Positions 51,200 to 57,842 of a stretch of 64,000 nt of DNA are shown in pieces. Source of the stretch: an uncultured Acidobacteriota bacterium (GTDB taxonomy: Bacteria > Acidobacteriota > Thermoanaerobaculia > Gp7-AA8); contig CAWGHO010000003.1 of NCBI GenBank assembly GCA_963822445.1, positions 864,001 through 928,000 of the forward strand, given 5' to 3'. The first letter of the stretch is position 1. The number at the start of each line of letters is the position of its first letter. A model generated the notes under the pieces. It was not told where the DNA came from. It did not search any database and worked only from the letters and a program-made list of their open reading frames with translations. A program made the translations under genes and the position numbers.

Positions 51200-51865
51200 G
51201 TGGCCATGACTCGCTGGCGCTGGTGGTGGGCCGTCCTGGCTTTCTTCGCGATTCCGATCGGTCTTTACGCCGCTTCGTTTCTCTACTTCGGCGAGCGGAT
51301 GTTTCCGCCGCCGCTCAAGGCGTCGTTTCTCGCGCGGCCGTGGGGCATTTACCCGCACGCGCTGATCGGCGCGATCGCGCTCGTCATCGGGCCGTTTCAA
51401 TTCAATCGTCGTCTGCTTCTCCGGCGCCGTCCCGTGCATCGCGTGATGGGCCGGGTCTATGTCCTCGGCGCACTGGTGACGGGCATCGTCGGCACCTACA
51501 TGGCGTGGTACGCGTTCGGCGGTCCGGTCACGCAACTGGGATTCGCGGGACTCGGACTGTCGCTGCTCTTCACCACGATCAAGGCCTTCACCTCGATCAA
51601 AGCGCGCGACGTCGCGGCGCACCGGCGATGGATGATCCGCAGTTACGCGCTGCTCTTCGGCGCGGTGACGTTGCGCATCGAGCTGCCGATCCTGATCGCG
51701 ATTTTCGGCGCGTTCGAGCCGGCGTATCGAATCGTGGCCTGGTCGTCCTGGGTACCGAACTTACTTGTCGCCGAGGCGATCGTGCATGGCGCGCCGGACG
51801 TTGCGGATGTCACCGTCGAGCGGCCGGTCCTTGAAAACCGGAGCGGCAGCCTGTCGAACGCATAA
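51200..51865 (+). CDS. DUF2306 membrane protein
   Basis: GPFQF, HRVMGRVY, HRRWMIRSYAL..AVTLR and WVPNLLVAE. Confidence 0.85.
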   Translation: MAMTRWRWWWAVLAFFAIPIGLYAASFLYFGERMFPPPLKASFLARPWGIYPHALIGAIALVIGPFQFNRRLLLRRRPVHRVMGRVYVLGALVTGIVGTYMAWYAFGGPVTQLGFAGLGLSLLFTTIKAFTSIKARDVAAHRRWMIRSYALLFGAVTLRIELPILIAIFGAFEPAYRIVAWSSWVPNLLVAEAIVHGAPDVADVTVERPVLENRSGSLSNA

Positions 51866-53479
51866 GTACAGCGCTCGCGAGCCCGTTCCGAGTTGCGCGG
51901 CCACGTTGTTCCGATCGACGGATTCGAATTGCCGCGCCTGCGCTTCCGCGGCGTCGACGTCGAGGAGCTGGGGCGACGGCCGATTGGGGTCGTAATCGAA
52001 CGTCGCGCGCCATTCGACGGCCTGGGCGGCCGTCAGCAACTCGATGGCCAGCACTGACTGCGCGTTCGACAGCACGGTGCGCAATTTCCGCGCGGCGTAC
52101 GTCGACATCGAAACGTGATCCTCGGTATTCGCACCGGTCGGAATCGAATCCACCGAAGCGGGATGGGCGAGGACCTTGTTCTCGGAGACGATCGATGCCG
52201 CGGTGTACTGGAGGATCATCAGGCCCGAGTTCACGCCCGGGCGGGTCGTGAGGTTCTGGGGCAGTCCGCGATTGTGATCGCCGTCGAGCATCATCTGCGT
52301 GCGGCGCTCGGAGATGTTCGCCAGCTCGGCGACGGCGATCGTCAGAAAGTCCGCAGCCAGTGCGAGCGGCTGGCCGTGGAAGTTGCCGGCCGAATACGCC
52401 AGGCGGCTCTCGCCGTGATACCAGTCCGGCCAGTTCGCGCGGAACTGCACGTCGAACGGCTCGCCTTCGCCGGGGAAGAAGAGCGGATTGTCGGTTGCGG
52501 CGTTGAGCTCTTTCTCGGCGATGCCGCGCACGAAGTTGATCGTGTCGCGCGTCGCGCCATGAACCTGCGGCGCGCAGCGAAGCGAATACGCATCCTGCAC
52601 GGCACCGGCGCGCTCGACGAGCTTGCTGCCGCTGATCGATTCGCGAATGCGGCGCGCGCTGTCGATCTGACCGGGGTGACCGCGTTCCTCGTGCACTTTC
52701 GAGTCGAACGCGCGCGTGCAACCGGCCATGGCCTCGAGTGTCATCGCGGCCGCGGAGTCGCTGAGATCGGCGAGCTGCTGCGCGTCGTGCACCGCCAGGG
52801 CGAGCATCGCCGCCGAGAAGTTCGCACCGTTGACGAGTCCGAGGCCTTCTTTGAAGGTCGGCTTCATCTCTTCGGCGGTGAAGCCGAGGAGGGCCGGAAG
52901 GTCTTTCGCGTCGCGCAGAGTCTTGTCGTCGAGCGTGAAAAACCGCCCTTCGCCGAGGAGGGTGACGAAGAGATGCGATAGCGGACAGAGATCGCCGCTT
53001 GCTCCGACGGAACCGCGCAGCGGCACGAGCGGAATCACGCCGCGGTTGAGCATCTCCTGAACGATGCTGACCAGCTTCGCGCGCACGCCGGAATGGCCGC
53101 GCAGAAATGCGTTCAGTCGGGTTGCAAGGCGCCGCGCACGACTTCAGGCGGGTAGTAATTCGTGAGGTCGTCGGCGTCTGTGTTCTCGCCGACGCCGACG
53201 GAGTGCGACAGCAGCAGATTGCGCTGCAGCTGCTCGAGATCGTCCGGCGCAATCGGCTTGTCCTTGAACTCGCCGAAGCCGGTCGTGACGCCGTACTCGC
53301 TCGGCGCCGCTTTTCCTTCCGCCCAGGCCCGCCGGTAGTTCTCCACGACCTCGGCGATGAGCCGCTCGCTGCGCGCGACGCGCCTCGTTCGTGGATGGGT
53401 CGAGCTCCACGCGTGCGCCATCGCGGGCGATGGCCGCGAGCTGTTCGATGGTGAGGGAGTTGCCGTCGAGGGTGATCAC
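51761..53479 (-). CDS. hutH: histidine ammonia-lyase (MIO enzyme), two apparent frameshifts near 53390 and 53115
   Basis: [31 protein letters not shown] (SH specificity pair), GSVGASGDL (MIO), [14 protein letters not shown] and EDHVSM. Confidence 0.85.
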
Positions 53480-54886
53480 TCGATCTCCGCGAGCATCTTG
53501 CGAATGCCCTCGACCAGCTCCGTCCGCGGAATCGTCACCTGTCCGGCGCGCTGGGCAAGGTACTCCTTGCGATCGGCGACCGGTTTGGCGCGCTCGCGGC
53601 CGGCGACCATGTCTTTCACGGTCACCTGTCCTGAGGCTTTTTCGTTCGAGCCGTAGAGGATCGCCAGGGGGATGTCGTACTGATCGGCGTACTTGAGCTG
53701 CTTGCCCGGGCCCTTCGCCGTGCCGATGTAAAGCTCGGTGGGGATGCCGGCGCGTCGCAGCTCCCAGGTCATCGCCATGTAGTCCGAAGCGAGGCTCGGC
53801 GTCCATGTTCGTGATGAGGACGCGCGCGGTGGCTTTGCGCTTGTCGAGCTTGCCGAGGTGGCCGAGTGCCGCCAGCAGACGATCGACGCCGATCGAGGCA
53901 CCGACTGCCGGAATGCGCTCGCCGTGAAAGCGGGTCACGAGGTCGTCATACCGTCCGCCCCCGAACACAGACCCGAACTGAGGGGCTTCGGTGAGAATCG
54001 CCTCGAAGACCGGACCGGTGTAGTAGGCGAGACCGCGGGCGATGGAAAGGTCGAGCGAGACCTTGTCGTCGTCGTAGCCGAGGGCGTAGAGGTGGTCGGA
54101 GATTTTTGCGACGTCCGCGACGGCCGGTGCATCGGCGAACAGCTCCTGCAACTGGGTGACGACCTCGCGGCGCGTGCCGCGAATGGCCAGGAACTTCTCG
54201 ATTTTGTCGACCTGCTGCCGCGCCAGTCCGACGCCGCGGATGGTGTCGCCCGATTCGTCTTTGTAGCCGGTCATGAGCTCGAGCTTCACCTTCTCGAGAC
54301 CGACCTTGTCGAGCTTGTCGAGGACGCGAAACACGTCGACGCCCTGTTCCGGGGTGATCTCCGCGAATCCCATCAGCGCATTGAGAACGCCGCGGCTGGA
54401 GTAGCGGACCACATAGCCGCCGACCTTCAGGGCGTCGAGCGTGTCGCACATCCCGGCGATGATCTCCGTATCCGCAACCTCGGACTCGACACCGACGGAA
54501 TCGAGATCGAACTGGGTGAACTCGCGATAGCGCCCCTTGTCCGGCTTGTCGGCTCGCCAGACCGAGGCGACCTGGTAACGGCGGAAGGGGCGGGGGAGAT
54601 CGGCGTACTGGGCGATGACGCGCGCGAGCGGCACGGTCAGATCGAAGCGGAGCCCCAGTTCCTCTTTTTCCGGATTGGTGACCCGAAAGATCGACGACTG
54701 CGCTTCCTGGCCCGCGCTGCCGGAGAGGACGTCGAGGTACTCGATCGCGGGCGTGCTCAGCGGAACGAAGCCGTAGAGCTCATAGACGCCACGGATGGTG
54801 TCCACCATCTGCTGCCGCGCCAGCATCTGGTCGGGAAGGAGATCGCGTAACCCTCGGGAGAGCCGTGGCTGAACGGTGGAAGTCAT
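53476..54886 (-). CDS. hisS: histidine--tRNA ligase (alphaproteobacterial/eukaryote-like type), apparent frameshift near 53795
   Basis: RGLRD, LRFDLTVPLAR, WRADKP..GRYREFTQFD, RGLAYYTG, GGGRYD and GASIGVDR; C-terminal anticodon domain GKQLKYAD. Confidence 0.93.
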
Positions 54887-54988
54887 GAATGCAGAATGCA
54901 GAATGCAGAATGCAAAAAGGGGGAATGAAGACTGGGCCGCGTTCGGCGCCCGCTCACTTCTTCATTCTGCATTCTGCATTCTGCATTC
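54887..54988. repeat. heptamer-array palindrome (GAATGCA / TGCATTC) between tRNA-His and hisS
   Basis: gaatgcagaatgcagaatgcagaatgca ... cattctgcattctgcattctgcattc. Confidence 0.88.
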
Positions 54989-55008
54989 GCCGCGAACGCG
55001 GCGGGAGT

Positions 55009-55085
55009 TGGTACCGAGGGGCGGGCTCGAACCGCCGACCCCCAGATCCACAATCTGGTGCTCTAACCAACTGAGCTACCCCGGC
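55009..55085 (-). tRNA. tRNA-His(GUG), CCA encoded, A73, G1:U72, no encoded G-1
   Basis: Cloverleaf GCCGGGG TA GCTC AGTTGGTTA GAGC A CCAGA TTGTGGA TCTGG GGGTC GGCGG TTCGAGC CCGCC CCTCGGT A CCA. Confidence 0.96.
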
Positions 55086-55164
55086 ACGGGAGGGGGATGA
55101 TACCCGAAGAGGAACGCAATTGGGCCGGTCCGCATTCTCGCTATCTCTGGAAACAAAACGAGCC

Positions 55165-55548
55165 ATGTTCCGGGTGGCTCTCGTCGCGGAATTTGCGGGT
55201 GAATCGGTCTTGACCGGCAGACGGGTGGTCGGTGCGCTTCTGCGGACGCATTCAGTTCGCCAACACTGCGCGAGCCTCGGGATCGACCGCGCCCGGTTGG
55301 TCACGGTCGTAGACGACCCTCAGTTTCTGTCGTTCGAAGAGTGCGAGCGACGGGTTGCGAGCAATGTTGGCGTGGCCGCGCCCTTGCCCCTCGACTCCGC
55401 ATTGCTCCCGGTGTTCCGCGCGATCATCGAACGGGACGGGCACCTGGGCGCGTCGCCCGTGGGGTTGCTCCGGGACATCCTTCGCGCAGATGCTGAGCTC
55501 GCGGACCTCCTGGCATCCCACGGCCTCACCGCGGAATCTCTCAGGTAA
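55165..55548 (+). CDS. hypothetical protein (weak Clp-N-like helical pattern)
   Basis: Coherent ORF ending LADLLASHGLTAESLR. Confidence 0.4.
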   Translation: MFRVALVAEFAGESVLTGRRVVGALLRTHSVRQHCASLGIDRARLVTVVDDPQFLSFEECERRVASNVGVAAPLPLDSALLPVFRAIIERDGHLGASPVGLLRDILRADAELADLLASHGLTAESLR

Positions 55549-55899: not shown

Positions 55900-56562
55900 T
55901 CATTCCGCGTCGGTTCCTGCGAGAAACTCGCGGGTCTTCGCGCGATGAACGCCGATCGAGCGCGTTCCGCTGTCCTCCACCAGCCCGAGCTTGCGGAAGC
56001 GCTGCATGAACGCGGTGATGCGGGGACGGGTCGTGCCGACGATCTGGGACAGCTCTTCGTGGGAGATGCGCTGTTCGAGGCGAACGTACGGCCCGTCGGT
56101 CGCGCCGAGCTTCTCCGCGACGCCGAGGAGGACTTTGGCCAGACGGCGCTCGGCGTCCATGGTCACGAGATCGAACACCGCGGTCTGGCGCTCGGCCATC
56201 CGGTCGGCGAGATGGCGTAACAGCAGATCGGTCGCGGCGGCCGCTTTCACCTCGCCGAGGAAGTCGCGGCGGGTGATGCGATGCACGACGGTGGGCACCA
56301 TCGCCGACGCGGCTTCGTAGCGCTTCGGTGCGGTGAAACAGGACTCACCGAAGACATCGCCGGCGGTGTAGATGGCCAGCAGGCAGTCCTTGCCCGCGGC
56401 GGACGACATCGACAATTTCACCTGCCCCGACTCGATGAGATACATCGAGTCGTCGTCGTCACCCGGGGCGTAAATCGACTGCTGAACATCGACGCGCACG
56501 TGTGCCGATGCCGAAGCGCGATCGAATACATCGCGGAGTGACAGTGCGTGCGCATGAGGCAT
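55900..56562 (-). CDS. Crp/Fnr-family transcriptional regulator
   Basis: YLIESGQVKL, GDVFGE, ERRLAKVLL and HTH SHEELSQIVGTTRPRIT. Confidence 0.92.
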   Translation of the reverse strand: MPHAHALSLRDVFDRASASAHVRVDVQQSIYAPGDDDDSMYLIESGQVKLSMSSAAGKDCLLAIYTAGDVFGESCFTAPKRYEAASAMVPTVVHRITRRDFLGEVKAAAATDLLLRHLADRMAERQTAVFDLVTMDAERRLAKVLLGVAEKLGATDGPYVRLEQRISHEELSQIVGTTRPRITAFMQRFRKLGLVEDSGTRSIGVHRAKTREFLAGTDAE

Positions 56563-56836
56563 TTGGTTAGAGGCGCAGCGATCGTAGGCAGCGTCGATAG
56601 CCACGTCTGTTCAGAATTGGACATGCATTGCCACACATCGTGAATTGCCGCTACGAAGCGCAGAATCACGCGCAGTTTCATGCGCAGAGGCATTGCGCAA
56701 TCGAATCGTCCCGGCGATGTGCGAGCGCGCGCGAAGCGTGTGTGATCGTGCACAGGACCGCGTCCAGTAGACGATTTGCGCGATCCCGCGGACTTATGTT
56801 GCGCACGCGCTGGGACCGTGGAGCAGGGAGTGCGAT

Positions 56837-57842
56837 CTACGACGCGGTCAGCAGGAAATCGGCGAACCAGCGCCGCGAATCCGTCCACGTCCGGCTCACC
56901 GTGAAACCGCTCGCCGCCGCAAGCGCGGCGATGGTTCGATCGTTGTGTTTGTACGAGCTCTCGGTGTGGATGCTCTCGCCCTTTTCGAACGCGACCTCGA
57001 GATCGAGCGCGTCGATGCGCACGGTCTGTTTGCGGCGGCTGTCGAGGTGCATCTCGATGCGGCCGTGCGTCTCGTCGTACAACGCGCGGTGCGCGAACTG
57101 ATCGAGCGCGAAGTGTCCGCCGAGCTCGCGATTGATGCGCTGCAGGACATTGAGATTGAACGCCGCGGTCACGCCAAGCGCGTCGTCGTACGCCGCTTCG
57201 AGCGTGGCCCGGTCTTTACGCAGATCGGCGCCGAGAAGCACAGCGTCACCGGGACGAAGCGCCGCGCGGAGATCGCGAAACATGGCTACGGCCTGATCCG
57301 GCTCCAGGTTGCCGATCGTCGATCCGAGGAAGAGGACGATCGTGCGGCCGCGGGTCATGGTCAGTTTGGCCATCGGAATCGACGGCCGCGAAAAGTCGGA
57401 ACAGATCGCGGAGATGCGCAGTCCCTCGTACTCGGTCAGCAGATCGCGCGCGGCCTTCTCCAGCATCGACGCATCGACGTCGACCGGCACGTACTCCAGC
57501 TCGCGCTGCCGGGCAGTGATCACGTCGAAGAGGATCCGCGTTTTGCGCGCCGTTCCGCTGCCCAGTTCGACCAGGCGCGAGTGACTGCCGAACGCGTCCA
57601 CGATCTCCCCGGCATGCGTCGTTAACACTTCCGTCTCCGCCCGCGTCACGTAGTACTCGGGCAAAAAGCAGATCGTGTCGAACAAAGCGGAGCCTAGTTC
57701 GTCATAGAACCAGCGGGGCGGCAGCGACTTGCGCTGTGCGGTCAGGCCCCGGCGCACATCGTCGGCGAAAGTTCCCGGTGGCGGACTGCGTTCGGTGCAG
57801 GACGAACCGCGGGGTGGAAGGAACGGAAGGGGCTGCGGTCAT
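56837..57842 (-). CDS. egtD: L-histidine N-alpha-methyltransferase; apparent 1-nt frameshift near 57772
   Basis: KSLPPRWFYDELGS.LF..I..LPEYY.TRAE, LVELGSG, GSTIGN, AAYDD..GVTAAFN, RIEMHL and IHTESSYK; upstream ATG 57842 is out of frame by one base. Confidence 0.9.

What the first reader, a model, noticed from the sequence alone, without database searches (positions are those of the whole stretch)
53476..55085. tRNA-His lacking G-1 (G1:U72, A73) directly upstream of a matching alphaproteobacterial-type HisRS
Seen: the tRNA-His(GUG) acceptor is GCCGGGG/CCUCGGU, the discriminator is A73, and the base at -1 is T, not G. The next gene on the same strand is hisS, containing WRADKP..GRYREFTQFD and the insert LDKLDKVGLEKVKLELMTGYKDESGDTIRGVGL. 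Established: nearly all bacterial tRNA-His carry an encoded G-1:C73 identity pair. The best-known exception is an alphaproteobacterial clade (Rhizobiales, Caulobacterales, Rhodobacterales and relatives) whose tRNA-His lacks G-1, has U72/A73, and is charged by a divergent eukaryote-like HisRS. From memory, that HisRS has a similar KDESGD segment. Inference: this apparently non-alphaproteobacterial genome has the same identity switch, and the physical tRNA-synthetase linkage would let the orthogonal pair move as one unit. Alternatives: a U-1:A73 pair is retained, or a Thg1-like enzyme adds G-1.
Basis: partly seen in the sequence, partly recalled or inferred. Interest (0 to 1): 0.88.

Follow-up and report, generated by a model that had tools for sequence, protein, structure and literature searches.

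The report
G-1-less tRNA-His with matching synthetase
An acidobacterial genome carries, side by side, a histidine tRNA without the usual extra 5' G and a histidyl-tRNA synthetase of the special type so far described only in some alphaproteobacteria, and the same pair turns up in genomes labelled as many other bacterial phyla.

Summary
The genome's only tRNA-His (55009-55085, minus strand) has G1:U72, A73 and T at -1. It lies 122 nt upstream of the only hisS. The host is an Acidobacteriota; records of close relatives are titled Thermoanaerobaculia. It is not an alphaproteobacterium.

The HisRS shares three signatures with named alphaproteobacterial HisRS:
- The motif-2 loop Gln is lost (Asp here, Gly in the alphaproteobacteria).
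- It has the GYKDESGD segment.
- It has a ~20-residue insert in the anticodon-binding domain.

It falls in one well-supported subfamily with them but is not nested among them. An AU test rejects an exclusive grouping.

In 151 genomes of the host's class, this HisRS type and the U72 tRNA-His co-occur in 32 of 32 genomes (A73 in 30, G73 in 2). Of 119 genomes without this HisRS type, none has a tRNA-like hit. The same pair, often adjacent, occurs in MAGs titled Planctomycetota, Bacteroidota, Acidimicrobiales, Zixibacteria, Nitrospiraceae and others. I found no paper reporting this outside alphaproteobacteria.

hisS is frameshifted in this assembly. rpoB, hutH and hisZ are too, so assembly error is likely. 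Mature tRNA ends and charging remain untested.

The parts
55009..55085 (-). tRNA-His(GUG) gene with encoded CCA: G1:U72, C2:G71, C3:G70, A73, 9-nt D loop. Base -1 (55086) is T on this strand.
   Evidence: ARAGORN; Rfam RF00005 at 67.2 bits; sequence. It is the only tRNA-His of 54 tRNAs in the genome.
54887..55008 (-). 122-nt spacer between the tRNA and the hisS start. It is an inverted (GAATGCA)n repeat hairpin whose 3' arm ends at the hisS ATG. It is absent from several relatives, where the gap is only 4-31 nt.
   Evidence: RNA fold -70 kcal/mol, z -8.55, 0 of 200 shuffles as good. The genome holds 53 such arrays, 22 of them as inverted pairs. Gaps in 48 loci range 0-381 nt, median 75.
53796..54886 (-). 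hisS, catalytic core up to the frame break. The motif-2 loop reads KPDKGRY (no Gln). The insertion-domain segment reads GYKDESGD.
   Evidence: PF13393, E 6.3e-50; alignments; PDB phmmer best hits 6nhi, 3net and human HARS rather than E. coli or T. thermophilus.
53793..53799 (-). Site of a net +1 base in this assembly that shifts the hisS frame, between ...NMDAE and ASDYMAM...
   Evidence: N and C parts lie in different frames only in G000. In the 21 relatives' loci where both parts were found, they share one frame. Contigs of relatives in public runs lack one base at 53793-53799 (table 4).
53476..53795 (-). hisS, anticodon-binding domain in the second frame. It carries the ~20-residue insert (GRERAKPVADRKEYLAQRAGQ) shared with alphaproteobacterial HisRS.
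   Evidence: PF03129, E 3e-10; alignment.
51761..53479 (-). Downstream gene of the aromatic/histidine ammonia-lyase family. Its GTG start overlaps the hisS stop (GTGA). It is split by frame breaks in this assembly.
   Evidence: PF00221 profile positions 15-91 lie in ORF 53113-53421 and positions 106-449 in ORF 51761-53086. Sequence.

Best explanation
This is a working histidine identity pair of the 'delta-G-1' kind.

How it most likely works:
- The tRNA-His precursor is cut by the ordinary bacterial RNase P at position +1, like any other tRNA. The mature tRNA therefore starts with G1 and has no extra 5' nucleotide.
- The HisRS encoded just downstream does not need G-1:C73. It has lost the motif-2 loop glutamine that reads that pair. 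It has gained an insert in its anticodon-binding domain.
- By analogy with the Caulobacter crescentus enzyme, it recognises the GUG anticodon together with U72 and A73.
- tRNA and synthetase lie on one strand, 0-381 nt apart in 48 loci. They are probably made from one transcript.

Shown: the sequence features, their conservation, and their co-occurrence with the HisRS type.
Inferred: the RNase P cut site, the charging rules and co-transcription.

Evolution: the pair belongs to a HisRS/tRNA-His lineage present in MAGs of many phyla. The alphaproteobacterial system is one branch of it. Within the host's own class its distribution disagrees with RpoB relatedness. At least one replacement of the whole identity system, probably by horizontal transfer, therefore took place.
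For: tRNA features:
- G1:U72, A73, no G at -1 and a 9-nt D loop. These are the traits listed for the delta-G-1 group by Yuan et al. 2010 (PMC3064791; parts 1-3 of 4 of the text read).
- They equal those of tRNA-His in Methylobacterium bullatum and Pseudorhodobacter turbinis records.
- They are conserved in 24 of 24 genus loci and in 40 distinct genes overall: 38 with G1:U72 + A73, one with G73, one with C1:G72.

Genome content: one tRNA-His, one hisS, no Thg1, and a type A RNase P RNA at 288 bits.

HisRS signatures:
- Gln in the motif-2 loop is kept in 12 of 13 outgroup rows, the 3 't31' rows included (P0131 has Arg). It is replaced in all subfamily rows; the window has Asp and the alphaproteobacteria Gly.
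- The anticodon-domain insert and the G[YR]xDxSGD segment are shared with alphaproteobacterial HisRS. The insert is absent from most of the outgroup rows shown, and the G[YR]xDxSGD segment from all of them.

Tree: the subfamily clade has SH-aLRT 97-99.

Co-occurrence in a draw of 151 class genomes:
- 32 genomes have this HisRS type.
- 30 of the 32 have a tRNA-like U72/A73 hit. The other two have U72/G73.
- 0 of the 119 others have a tRNA-like hit. Their 5 hits are non-tRNA by eye.
- Sister genera with another HisRS type carry g-1 + G1:C72 + C73.

Discordance with RpoB: G061 has RpoB 90% identical to G000 but a ~30% identical HisRS and a canonical tRNA-His. G047 and G119 have RpoB 76% and HisRS 69-74% with the delta-G-1 tRNA.

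T at -1 with A73 is also seen in 14 other tRNAs of this genome, so it is not special to tRNA-His.
Against: - No RNA or biochemical data exist. The mature 5' end and the charging rules are inferred from an enzyme only about 42% identical.
- T at -1 could pair with A73. It is T in 31 of 40 distinct genes, so a retained U-1 cannot be excluded from sequence.
- hisS as assembled is frameshifted.
- The hairpin element abuts the hisS start codon.
- The motif-2 residue is Asp, not the Gly reported as characteristic of the alphaproteobacterial clade (Amrine et al. 2014, PMC3937112, passages read).
- Phylum labels of MAGs come from record titles, and bins can be contaminated. G176 has a second RpoB fragment.
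- Tree supports are SH-aLRT values from a quick search.
- The AU-tested group was named after the tree was seen.
Confidence: 0.8

Rival explanations
1. The -1 uridine is kept. U-1 pairs with A73 and RNase P cuts one position upstream, as it does for G-1:C73 in E. coli. The mature tRNA would then have an 8-bp acceptor stem with U-1, and HisRS would read a 5' extra nucleotide after all.
For: T at -1 occurs in 24 of 24 genus loci and in 31 of 40 distinct genes of this tRNA type, including two alphaproteobacteria. U-1:A73 would be a Watson-Crick pair.
Against: - Among genes with A73, -1 is G, A or C in 8 of 39, so the pair does not covary.
- 14 other tRNAs of this genome also combine T at -1 with A73.
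- The HisRS lacks the Gln tied to reading of the -1:73 pair (Amrine 2014 passages).
- For C. crescentus, adding G-1 lowered kcat/Km five-fold (Yuan 2010, Table 1).
Confidence: 0.07
2. G-1 is added after transcription by a Thg1-like or unknown enzyme opposite A73, as in eukaryotes. Identity would then still be G-1 based.
For: A73 with no encoded G-1 is the eukaryotic arrangement. The HisRS is closer to human HARS (E 1e-43) than to E. coli HisRS (E 6e-16) in the PDB search.
Against: - No PF04446 match in the own genome, which is 94.7% complete. The control genome rang.
- The motif-2 Gln is lost.
- The enzyme groups with the biochemically G-1-independent alphaproteobacterial type.
Confidence: 0.03
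3. hisS in this genome is a real pseudogene (frameshift plus a hairpin insertion at its start). The locus would be a decaying relic and histidine charging would be done otherwise.
For: The frame break at 53793-53799. A 122-nt repeat hairpin ends at the ATG.
Against: - This is the only hisS in the genome.
- rpoB, the neighbouring lyase gene and hisZ are also frame-broken. This points to indel errors in a 3-contig assembly.
- In the 21 relatives' loci where both halves were found, they lie in one frame.
- Both halves still score as intact domains.
Confidence: 0.04
4. The pair was taken recently and directly from an alphaproteobacterium.
For: The tRNA is 78-83% identical to alphaproteobacterial tRNA-His and has the same D loop, anticodon loop and acceptor ends. 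The closest named cultured HisRS sequences are Rhodobacterales at 41-44%.
Against: - HisRS identity to alphaproteobacteria is only 37-44%.
- In the tree the alphaproteobacterial clade is sister to Acidimicrobiales MAGs in another wing.
- The AU test rejects an exclusive alphaproteobacteria + host-clade grouping (delta lnL 312, p 8e-21).
Confidence: 0.02

Closest known systems
[quoted passage not shown] 2010, PMC3064791; Wang et al. 2007 and Ardell & Andersson 2006, known to me only through citations because neither paper was held)
   Same: - tRNA-His without encoded G-1, with G1:U72, A73, C in positions 2-3 and a 9-nt D loop.
- HisRS without the motif-2 Gln, with the insert in the anticodon-binding domain and with the KDESGD segment.
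- A single pair per genome.
- The same well-supported HisRS subfamily.
   Different: - The host is an Acidobacteriota.
- HisRS is only 37-44% identical and lies in another wing of the subfamily.
- The motif-2 residue is Asp, not Gly.
- The tRNA gene lies directly upstream of hisS. None of the alphaproteobacterial loci fetched has a tRNA-His within the flanks. There hisS sits next to hisZ-hisG.
- Charging rules are not tested here.
Canonical bacterial G-1:C73 system (E. coli and T. thermophilus HisRS; structures 1KMM, 4RDX)
   Same: Class IIa HisRS fold families PF13393 + PF03129. GUG anticodon. RNase P RNA of type A is present.
   Different: - No encoded G-1, A73 instead of C73, U72 instead of C72.
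- The PDB match to these enzymes covers only the first ~165 residues, at E 1e-16 to 1e-19.
- Gln of the motif-2 loop is lost.
- Sister genera of the same family do use g-1/C72/C73 with another HisRS type.
G-1-independent HisRS of some protists (Acanthamoeba, Trypanosoma; Rao & Jackman 2015, PMC4338351, abstract and search listing only)
   Same: tRNA-His lacks G-1, there is no Thg1, and a non-canonical HisRS charges it.
   Different: These are eukaryotic cytosolic systems. T. brucei and T. cruzi HisRS are weaker PDB matches (E 1e-31 to 1e-33) than human HARS. No relationship beyond the general archaeal/eukaryote-like HisRS group was tested.

Membership tests
[quoted passage not shown] | The tRNA-His gene has no G at -1 | tested here: met
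   -1 is T. It is T in 24 of 24 genus loci.
[quoted passage not shown] | Discriminator A73 instead of C73 | tested here: met
   A73. 39 of 40 distinct genes of the wider set have A73 and one has G73. Two more class genomes have G73.
[quoted passage not shown] | G1:U72 wobble pair (U72 is a major determinant in C. crescentus) | tested here: met
   G1:U72. Seen in 39 of 40 distinct genes.
[quoted passage not shown] | 9-nt D loop with U20a | tested here: met
   The D loop AGUUGGUUA is identical to that of Methylobacterium and Pseudorhodobacter tRNA-His. It is not universal in the wider set: L042, L088 and L100 have 7-nt loops.
[quoted passage not shown] | HisRS motif-2 loop lacks the Gln that reads G-1:C73 (Gly in the alphaproteobacterial clade) | tested here: met
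   Gln is absent. The residue is Asp (KPDKGRY), not Gly. Other subfamily members have G, D, E, A or N.
[quoted passage not shown] | Insert in the anticodon-binding domain, said to be unique among class IIa synthetases | tested here: met
   A ~20-residue insert aligns with that of Cereibacter, Sinorhizobium and Methylobacterium HisRS. It is absent from most of the outgroup rows shown, e.g. P0144, P0148, P0138, Parabacteroides, Vescimonas and Haladaptatus; P0173, Embleya and the t31 row align partly over that stretch.
[quoted passage not shown] | HisRS groups with the alphaproteobacterial enzymes rather than with G-1-dependent ones | tested here: met
   One clade with SH-aLRT 97-99, apart from Bacteroidota, Firmicutes, actinobacterial, archaeal and 't31' HisRS. 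It is not inside the alphaproteobacterial clade.
[quoted passage not shown] | Mature tRNA-His starts at position 1 | not testable with these tools
   No run held the strain. Only contigs of relatives could be laid, and contigs cannot show RNA ends.
[quoted passage not shown] | Charging is independent of G-1 and dependent on the anticodon and U72 | not testable with these tools
   This needs enzyme assays.
Alphaproteobacterial RRCH clade (as host) | The host genome is an alphaproteobacterium | tested here: not met
   NCBI names of the identical or near-identical HisRS are Thermoanaerobaculia or Acidobacteriota. RpoB identity, over the parts that matched, is 52-67% to R. capsulatus against 90% to a same-family genome.

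The most novel reading that the evidence does not exclude
The delta-G-1 HisRS and its tRNA-His form a physically linked two-gene cassette. It has spread horizontally and replaced the canonical G-1:C73 histidine identity system repeatedly, in at least eight bacterial phyla. The famous alphaproteobacterial case would then be just one recipient (its HisRS is sister to that of Acidimicrobiales MAGs) in which the two genes later became unlinked. The trait would therefore be neither unique to nor born in alphaproteobacteria. Some genomes (G016, G152) even hold a second, divergent pair that may be orthogonal to the first.
Probability: 0.4. Interest if true: 0.85.

Novelty: new member of a known kind. 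Interest (0 to 1): 0.74.

Why it matters
What the field says: among Bacteria, loss of G-1 from tRNA-His is treated as confined to one alphaproteobacterial clade.
- Heinemann 2011 (PMC3245924) and the 2023 identity review (PMC9976931) say so; I read passages of both.
- It has been used as a phylogenetic marker for SAR11.

What is shown here:
- The same tRNA features and the same HisRS subfamily occur in an acidobacterial genus and several related families.
- They also occur in MAGs titled as many other phyla.
- The tRNA gene often sits directly upstream of hisS.

If this holds:
- The origin of the alphaproteobacterial system becomes a tractable question of transfer among bacteria.
- The synapomorphy argument needs care.
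- A family of natural HisRS/tRNA-His pairs, some duplicated in one genome, becomes available for work on orthogonal pairs.

Within one family, genera 90% identical in RpoB use opposite histidine identity rules. That is a rare natural example of a recent swap of a tRNA identity system.

Tried and rejected
Tried without a useful result:
- Naming the closest protein clusters with the listing of cluster members.
- Earlier notes of this scan.
- Reading Wang 2007 and Ardell & Andersson 2006. Neither is held, so what they say is taken from citing papers. Supplements were not consulted; Amrine 2014 Figure S1 on the motif-2 loop was seen only as its legend.
- Phage records hold no close relative of this HisRS. 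There were 8 records, all under 36% identity.
- Promoter and terminator scan of 53300-55500: 0 promoter-like sites and 1 terminator-like site, at chance level.
- Public runs: no run held more than 0.15 of the sampled words. The four runs laid gave only contigs of relatives, 85-99% alike. The source strain's reads, the tRNA ends and expression therefore could not be examined. The habitat labels of those runs are not used.
- Gene context of the second hisS/tRNA-His copies in G016 and G152. Of the 14 ORFs scanned, the 9 with Pfam hits were a subtilase, sensor kinases, a RelA/SpoT-TGS protein, a P-type ATPase and others; 5 had no hit. No integrase, transposase or phage genes were among them. Most small ORFs were not scanned.
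- Two canonical-looking tRNA-His 3' halves in G042 and G110. ARAGORN finds no tRNA there, so they were not counted as tRNA genes.

Considered and rejected:
- A sequencing error at -1 or 73. The same bases stand in 23 independent assemblies of the genus.
- Recent transfer from alphaproteobacteria.
- A second HisRS at G000:C1:870860. It is a frame-broken hisZ followed by hisG.

Limits of the counts:
- Whether pattern hits were 'tRNA-like' or 'not tRNA-like' was judged by eye (T-stem complementarity). They were not run through ARAGORN, except the loci.
- One search did not list 7 of its matches.

Unpublished genomes:
- G002 is one of the 24 genus loci.
- G156 is one of the 't31'/canonical genomes.
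- G030 is one canonical genome.
- G125 was searched and is counted among the 119 genomes without this HisRS type.
- No conclusion depends on any of them alone.
Full report
**What is there**

- The window holds one tRNA gene, tRNA-His(GTG), at 55009-55085 on the minus strand. Rfam's tRNA model matches it end to end at 67.2 bits.
- Read on its own strand it is GCCGGGG-UA-GCUC-AGUUGGUUA-GAGC-A-CCAGA-UUGUGGA-UCUGG-GGGUC-GGCGG-UUCGAGC-CCGCC-CCUCGGU-A-CCA, preceded by ...cccgt.
- Position 1 is G and pairs with U72. The discriminator is A73. CCA is encoded. The base before position 1 is T.
- hisS starts at 54886, 122 nt downstream on the same strand.

One thing was not reported: hisS is broken in this assembly.
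- The catalytic core (PF13393, E 6e-50) runs from 54886 to about 53796.
- The anticodon-binding domain (PF03129, E 3e-10) continues in another frame to 53476.
- The break lies at 53793-53799.
- In the 21 relatives' loci where both halves were found, they lie in one frame.
- Contigs of relatives in public runs have one base fewer at that spot.
- In the same genome rpoB is split between two frames. The lyase gene next to hisS is split. hisZ is split.
- The genome is 6.0 Mb in 3 contigs.
- I read all this as indel errors of the assembly, not as a dead gene. Only reads of the source sample can settle it, and none were found.

**Whose genome**

- The HisRS of the same-genus genome G001 is 100% identical to an NCBI protein titled 'Thermoanaerobaculia bacterium'. 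Every organism name given among the 120 best matches (83-90% identical) is Thermoanaerobaculia or Acidobacteriota.
- Species-representative contigs with 72-84% identical HisRS are titled the same way.
- RpoB of the host is 90% identical to a same-family genome and 66-76% to other families of its class. It is 52-67%, in pieces, to Rhodobacter capsulatus.
- The host is an Acidobacteriota, not an alphaproteobacterium.

**Is the pair the genome's only one?**

- ARAGORN finds 54 tRNAs in the whole genome and one tRNA-His.
- A protein search finds one hisS. The weak second hit is a hisZ-hisG locus.
- No Thg1 domain was found; the genome is 94.7% complete and the control genome rang.
- A type A RNase P RNA is present.

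**Conservation**

- The same tRNA (t at -1, G1:U72, A73, CCA) stands in 24 of 24 tRNA-His loci from the genus. These are the own genome plus 23 of 24 relatives; one locus is from an unpublished genome.
- Paired changes occur in the anticodon and T stems.
- hisS follows it in 22 of the 24 loci. The other two contigs end.

**Comparison with the known exception**

Yuan et al. 2010 (PMC3064791; parts 1-3 of 4 of the text read) list the traits of the alphaproteobacterial delta-G-1 tRNA-His:
- A73, G1-U72, a conserved C-G pair near the top of the stem, and a 9-nt D loop with U20a.
- For C. crescentus HisRS they show that the anticodon and U72 are major determinants, that A73 is minor, and that adding G-1 lowers efficiency five-fold.

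I obtained named alphaproteobacterial sequences from replicons filed as plasmids.
- tRNA-His of Methylobacterium bullatum and Pseudorhodobacter turbinis has t at -1, GCCG... at the 5' end, the same D loop AGUUGGUUA, the same anticodon loop, and ...GGU-A-CCA at the 3' end.
- HisRS of Rhodobacterales and Hyphomicrobiales matches the host type over 98-99% of its length at 37-44% identity.
- Bacteroidota, Firmicutes and archaeal enzymes match at 28-36% and stop about 30 residues short.

Three sequence signatures are shared:
- The motif-2 loop glutamine. Amrine et al. 2014 (PMC3937112, passages) tie it to the G-1:C73 pair. It is kept in 12 of 13 outgroup rows and replaced in every member of the subfamily. 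The residue is Gly in alphaproteobacteria and Asp in the window (KPDKGRY).
- The segment G[YR]xDxSGD.
- An insert of about 20 residues in the anticodon-binding domain. This is the insert that Yuan et al. name as the likely basis of anticodon reading.

**Phylogeny**

- In IQ-TREE trees (quick search, LG+C20 PMSF), the host type and the alphaproteobacterial type fall in one clade with SH-aLRT 97-99. That clade stands apart from other archaeal/eukaryote-like bacterial HisRS (74 rows, 71 rows).
- The host clade sits in one wing. With it are sequences from MAGs titled Holophagales, Bryobacterales, Vicinamibacteria, Planctomycetota, Chitinophagales and Ignavibacteriota, and a TA06 protein.
- The alphaproteobacteria sit in the other wing, sister to Acidimicrobiales MAGs. 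Planctomycetota, Zixibacteria, Hydrogenedentota and Nitrospiraceae MAGs lie nearby.
- An AU test rejects a tree that unites alphaproteobacteria and the host clade exclusively (delta lnL 312, p 8e-21). The group was named after the tree was seen.
- The pair is therefore not a recent loan from alphaproteobacteria.

**Does the tRNA type follow the enzyme type?**

In an even draw of 151 genomes of the host's class:
- 32 genomes carry this HisRS type (58-87% identical).
- A pattern for the 3' half of a U72/A73 tRNA-His hits a tRNA-like sequence in 30 of those 32. The other two have U72 with G73.
- Among the 119 other genomes there are five hits. None looks like a tRNA.
- A pattern for C72/C73 hits tRNA-like sequences in nearly all other families.
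- Five genomes with a third HisRS type ('t31', about 30% identical) were fetched: four from the host's own family and one from its order. All five have g at -1, G1:C72 and C73.

Outside the class:
- Among 30 non-alphaproteobacterial loci, 16 have a tRNA-His directly upstream of hisS. All 16 have G1:U72 and A73.
- For 15 further genomes (13 of the loci without an adjacent tRNA-His, plus G067 and G091 from the class draw), a pattern search found a U72 hit in 13. Of those, 11 have A73 and 2 have G73. One genome has C72 with A73 and one has no hit. No canonical form was found.
- Of 18 such genomes, 12 have only this one HisRS-like match. Six have an extra distant HisRS-like or HisZ-like ORF that was not studied further.
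- Their RpoB is as far from the host's as that of R. capsulatus. The bins are therefore not mislabelled relatives of the host. Single mis-binned contigs cannot be excluded.

**Linkage**

- In 48 loci the tRNA-His lies upstream of hisS on the same strand, 0-381 nt away (median 75).
- In the window the gap is filled by an inverted (GAATGCA)n hairpin (-70 kcal/mol, z -8.55). It belongs to a dispersed family of 53 arrays in the genome.
- In G001 the gap is only 12 nt.
- Linkage is not universal. In G121 and G154 the two genes are on different contigs. In G047 they are 4.4 kb apart.
- None of the alphaproteobacterial loci has a tRNA-His within 2-2.5 kb.
- Two genomes of the host genus carry a second hisS, 58-61% identical. 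Each has its own odd tRNA-His just upstream.

**Discordance with the species tree**

- G061 shares 90% RpoB identity with the host yet uses the t31 enzyme and a canonical tRNA-His.
- G047 and G119, at 76% RpoB identity, use the delta-G-1 pair.
- At least one complete swap of the histidine identity system therefore happened inside this family. The direction is not resolved.

**Mechanism**

The most likely reading (confidence about 0.8):
- RNase P cuts at +1.
- No nucleotide is added.
- The HisRS reads the anticodon plus U72 and A73.

On the T at -1: it could pair with A73. But -1 is G, A or C in 8 of 39 genes with A73, and 14 other tRNAs of this genome also have T at -1 with A73. A retained U-1 is therefore not indicated, though it is not excluded.

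**Novelty**

- Six searches of the paper library found no report of a bacterial tRNA-His without G-1 outside alphaproteobacteria.
- The passages I read in Heinemann 2011, Amrine 2014 and the 2023 review by Giege and Eriani restrict it to that clade.
- Papers in subscription journals are not covered by these searches.
- This is the known kind of system in new hosts. Its arrangement (linked genes) and its spread change the picture of where it came from.

Noticed in passing
window 53793-53799; window 53086-53480; G000:C2:1931570-1931770; L010 (G000:C1:870803-871771): Frame breaks in hisS, in the neighbouring ammonia-lyase gene, in rpoB and in hisZ of the same genome. This pattern is typical of indel errors in a long-read assembly. 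Other ORFs of this window may be split for the same reason.
   Followed up: partly
window 54887-55008 (also G000-wide): A dispersed inverted-repeat element made of (GAATGCA)2-5 arrays: 53 arrays, 22 of them as inverted pairs within 150 nt. One copy fills the tRNA-hisS spacer and ends exactly at the hisS ATG. Translations of the same repeat appear upstream of hisS in other genera (L050, L059).
   Followed up: partly
window 51761-53479 and 56837-57757: A histidine-themed neighbourhood. An aromatic/histidine ammonia-lyase gene starts in a GTGA overlap with the hisS stop. An EgtD-like histidine-specific methyltransferase (PF10017, E 4e-112) lies 1.7 kb upstream of the tRNA, with a Crp/Fnr-type regulator (55900-56604) between them.
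   Followed up: no
L046 (G016:C44) and L047 (G152:C5): Second hisS copies (58-61% identical to the main one) in two genomes of the genus. Each has its own divergent tRNA-His 56-76 nt upstream. One has C1:G72, A73 and G8. The other has G1:U72, A73 and C37. They could be a second, possibly orthogonal pair, or regulatory tRNA-like leaders. No mobile-element genes were seen nearby.
   Followed up: partly
L042 (G067), G091:C3:815542-815582: Two genomes of family f15 have the same HisRS type, but their tRNA-His has U72 with discriminator G73 instead of A73. L044, L088 and L100 have G at -1 opposite A73.
   Followed up: partly
L052-L058, L168-L172: A third HisRS type ('t31', about 30% identical, motif-2 loop EKQQRGRLREH) occurs in seven genera of the host's own family and in a sister family. 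In the five genomes checked it goes with a canonical g-1/C72/C73 tRNA-His that is not adjacent to hisS.
   Followed up: partly
G042:C19:11628-11668 and G110:C1:4031740-4031780 (L165, L164): Sequences that look like the 3' half of a canonical (C72, C73) tRNA-His, in two genomes that use the delta-G-1 pair. ARAGORN calls no tRNA there. They may be relics of the replaced tRNA gene or attachment-site remnants.
   Followed up: partly
L048 (G041) and L091: Tandem duplicate delta-G-1 tRNA-His genes upstream of hisS in two genomes. G047 has two identical copies on different contigs.
   Followed up: no
G173, G174, G175 (Bryobacterales MAGs): Besides the subfamily HisRS, these genomes hold a further HisRS-like ORF of 467-541 aa open frame, 27-35% identical. 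It was not determined whether it is a HisZ or a second synthetase.
   Followed up: no
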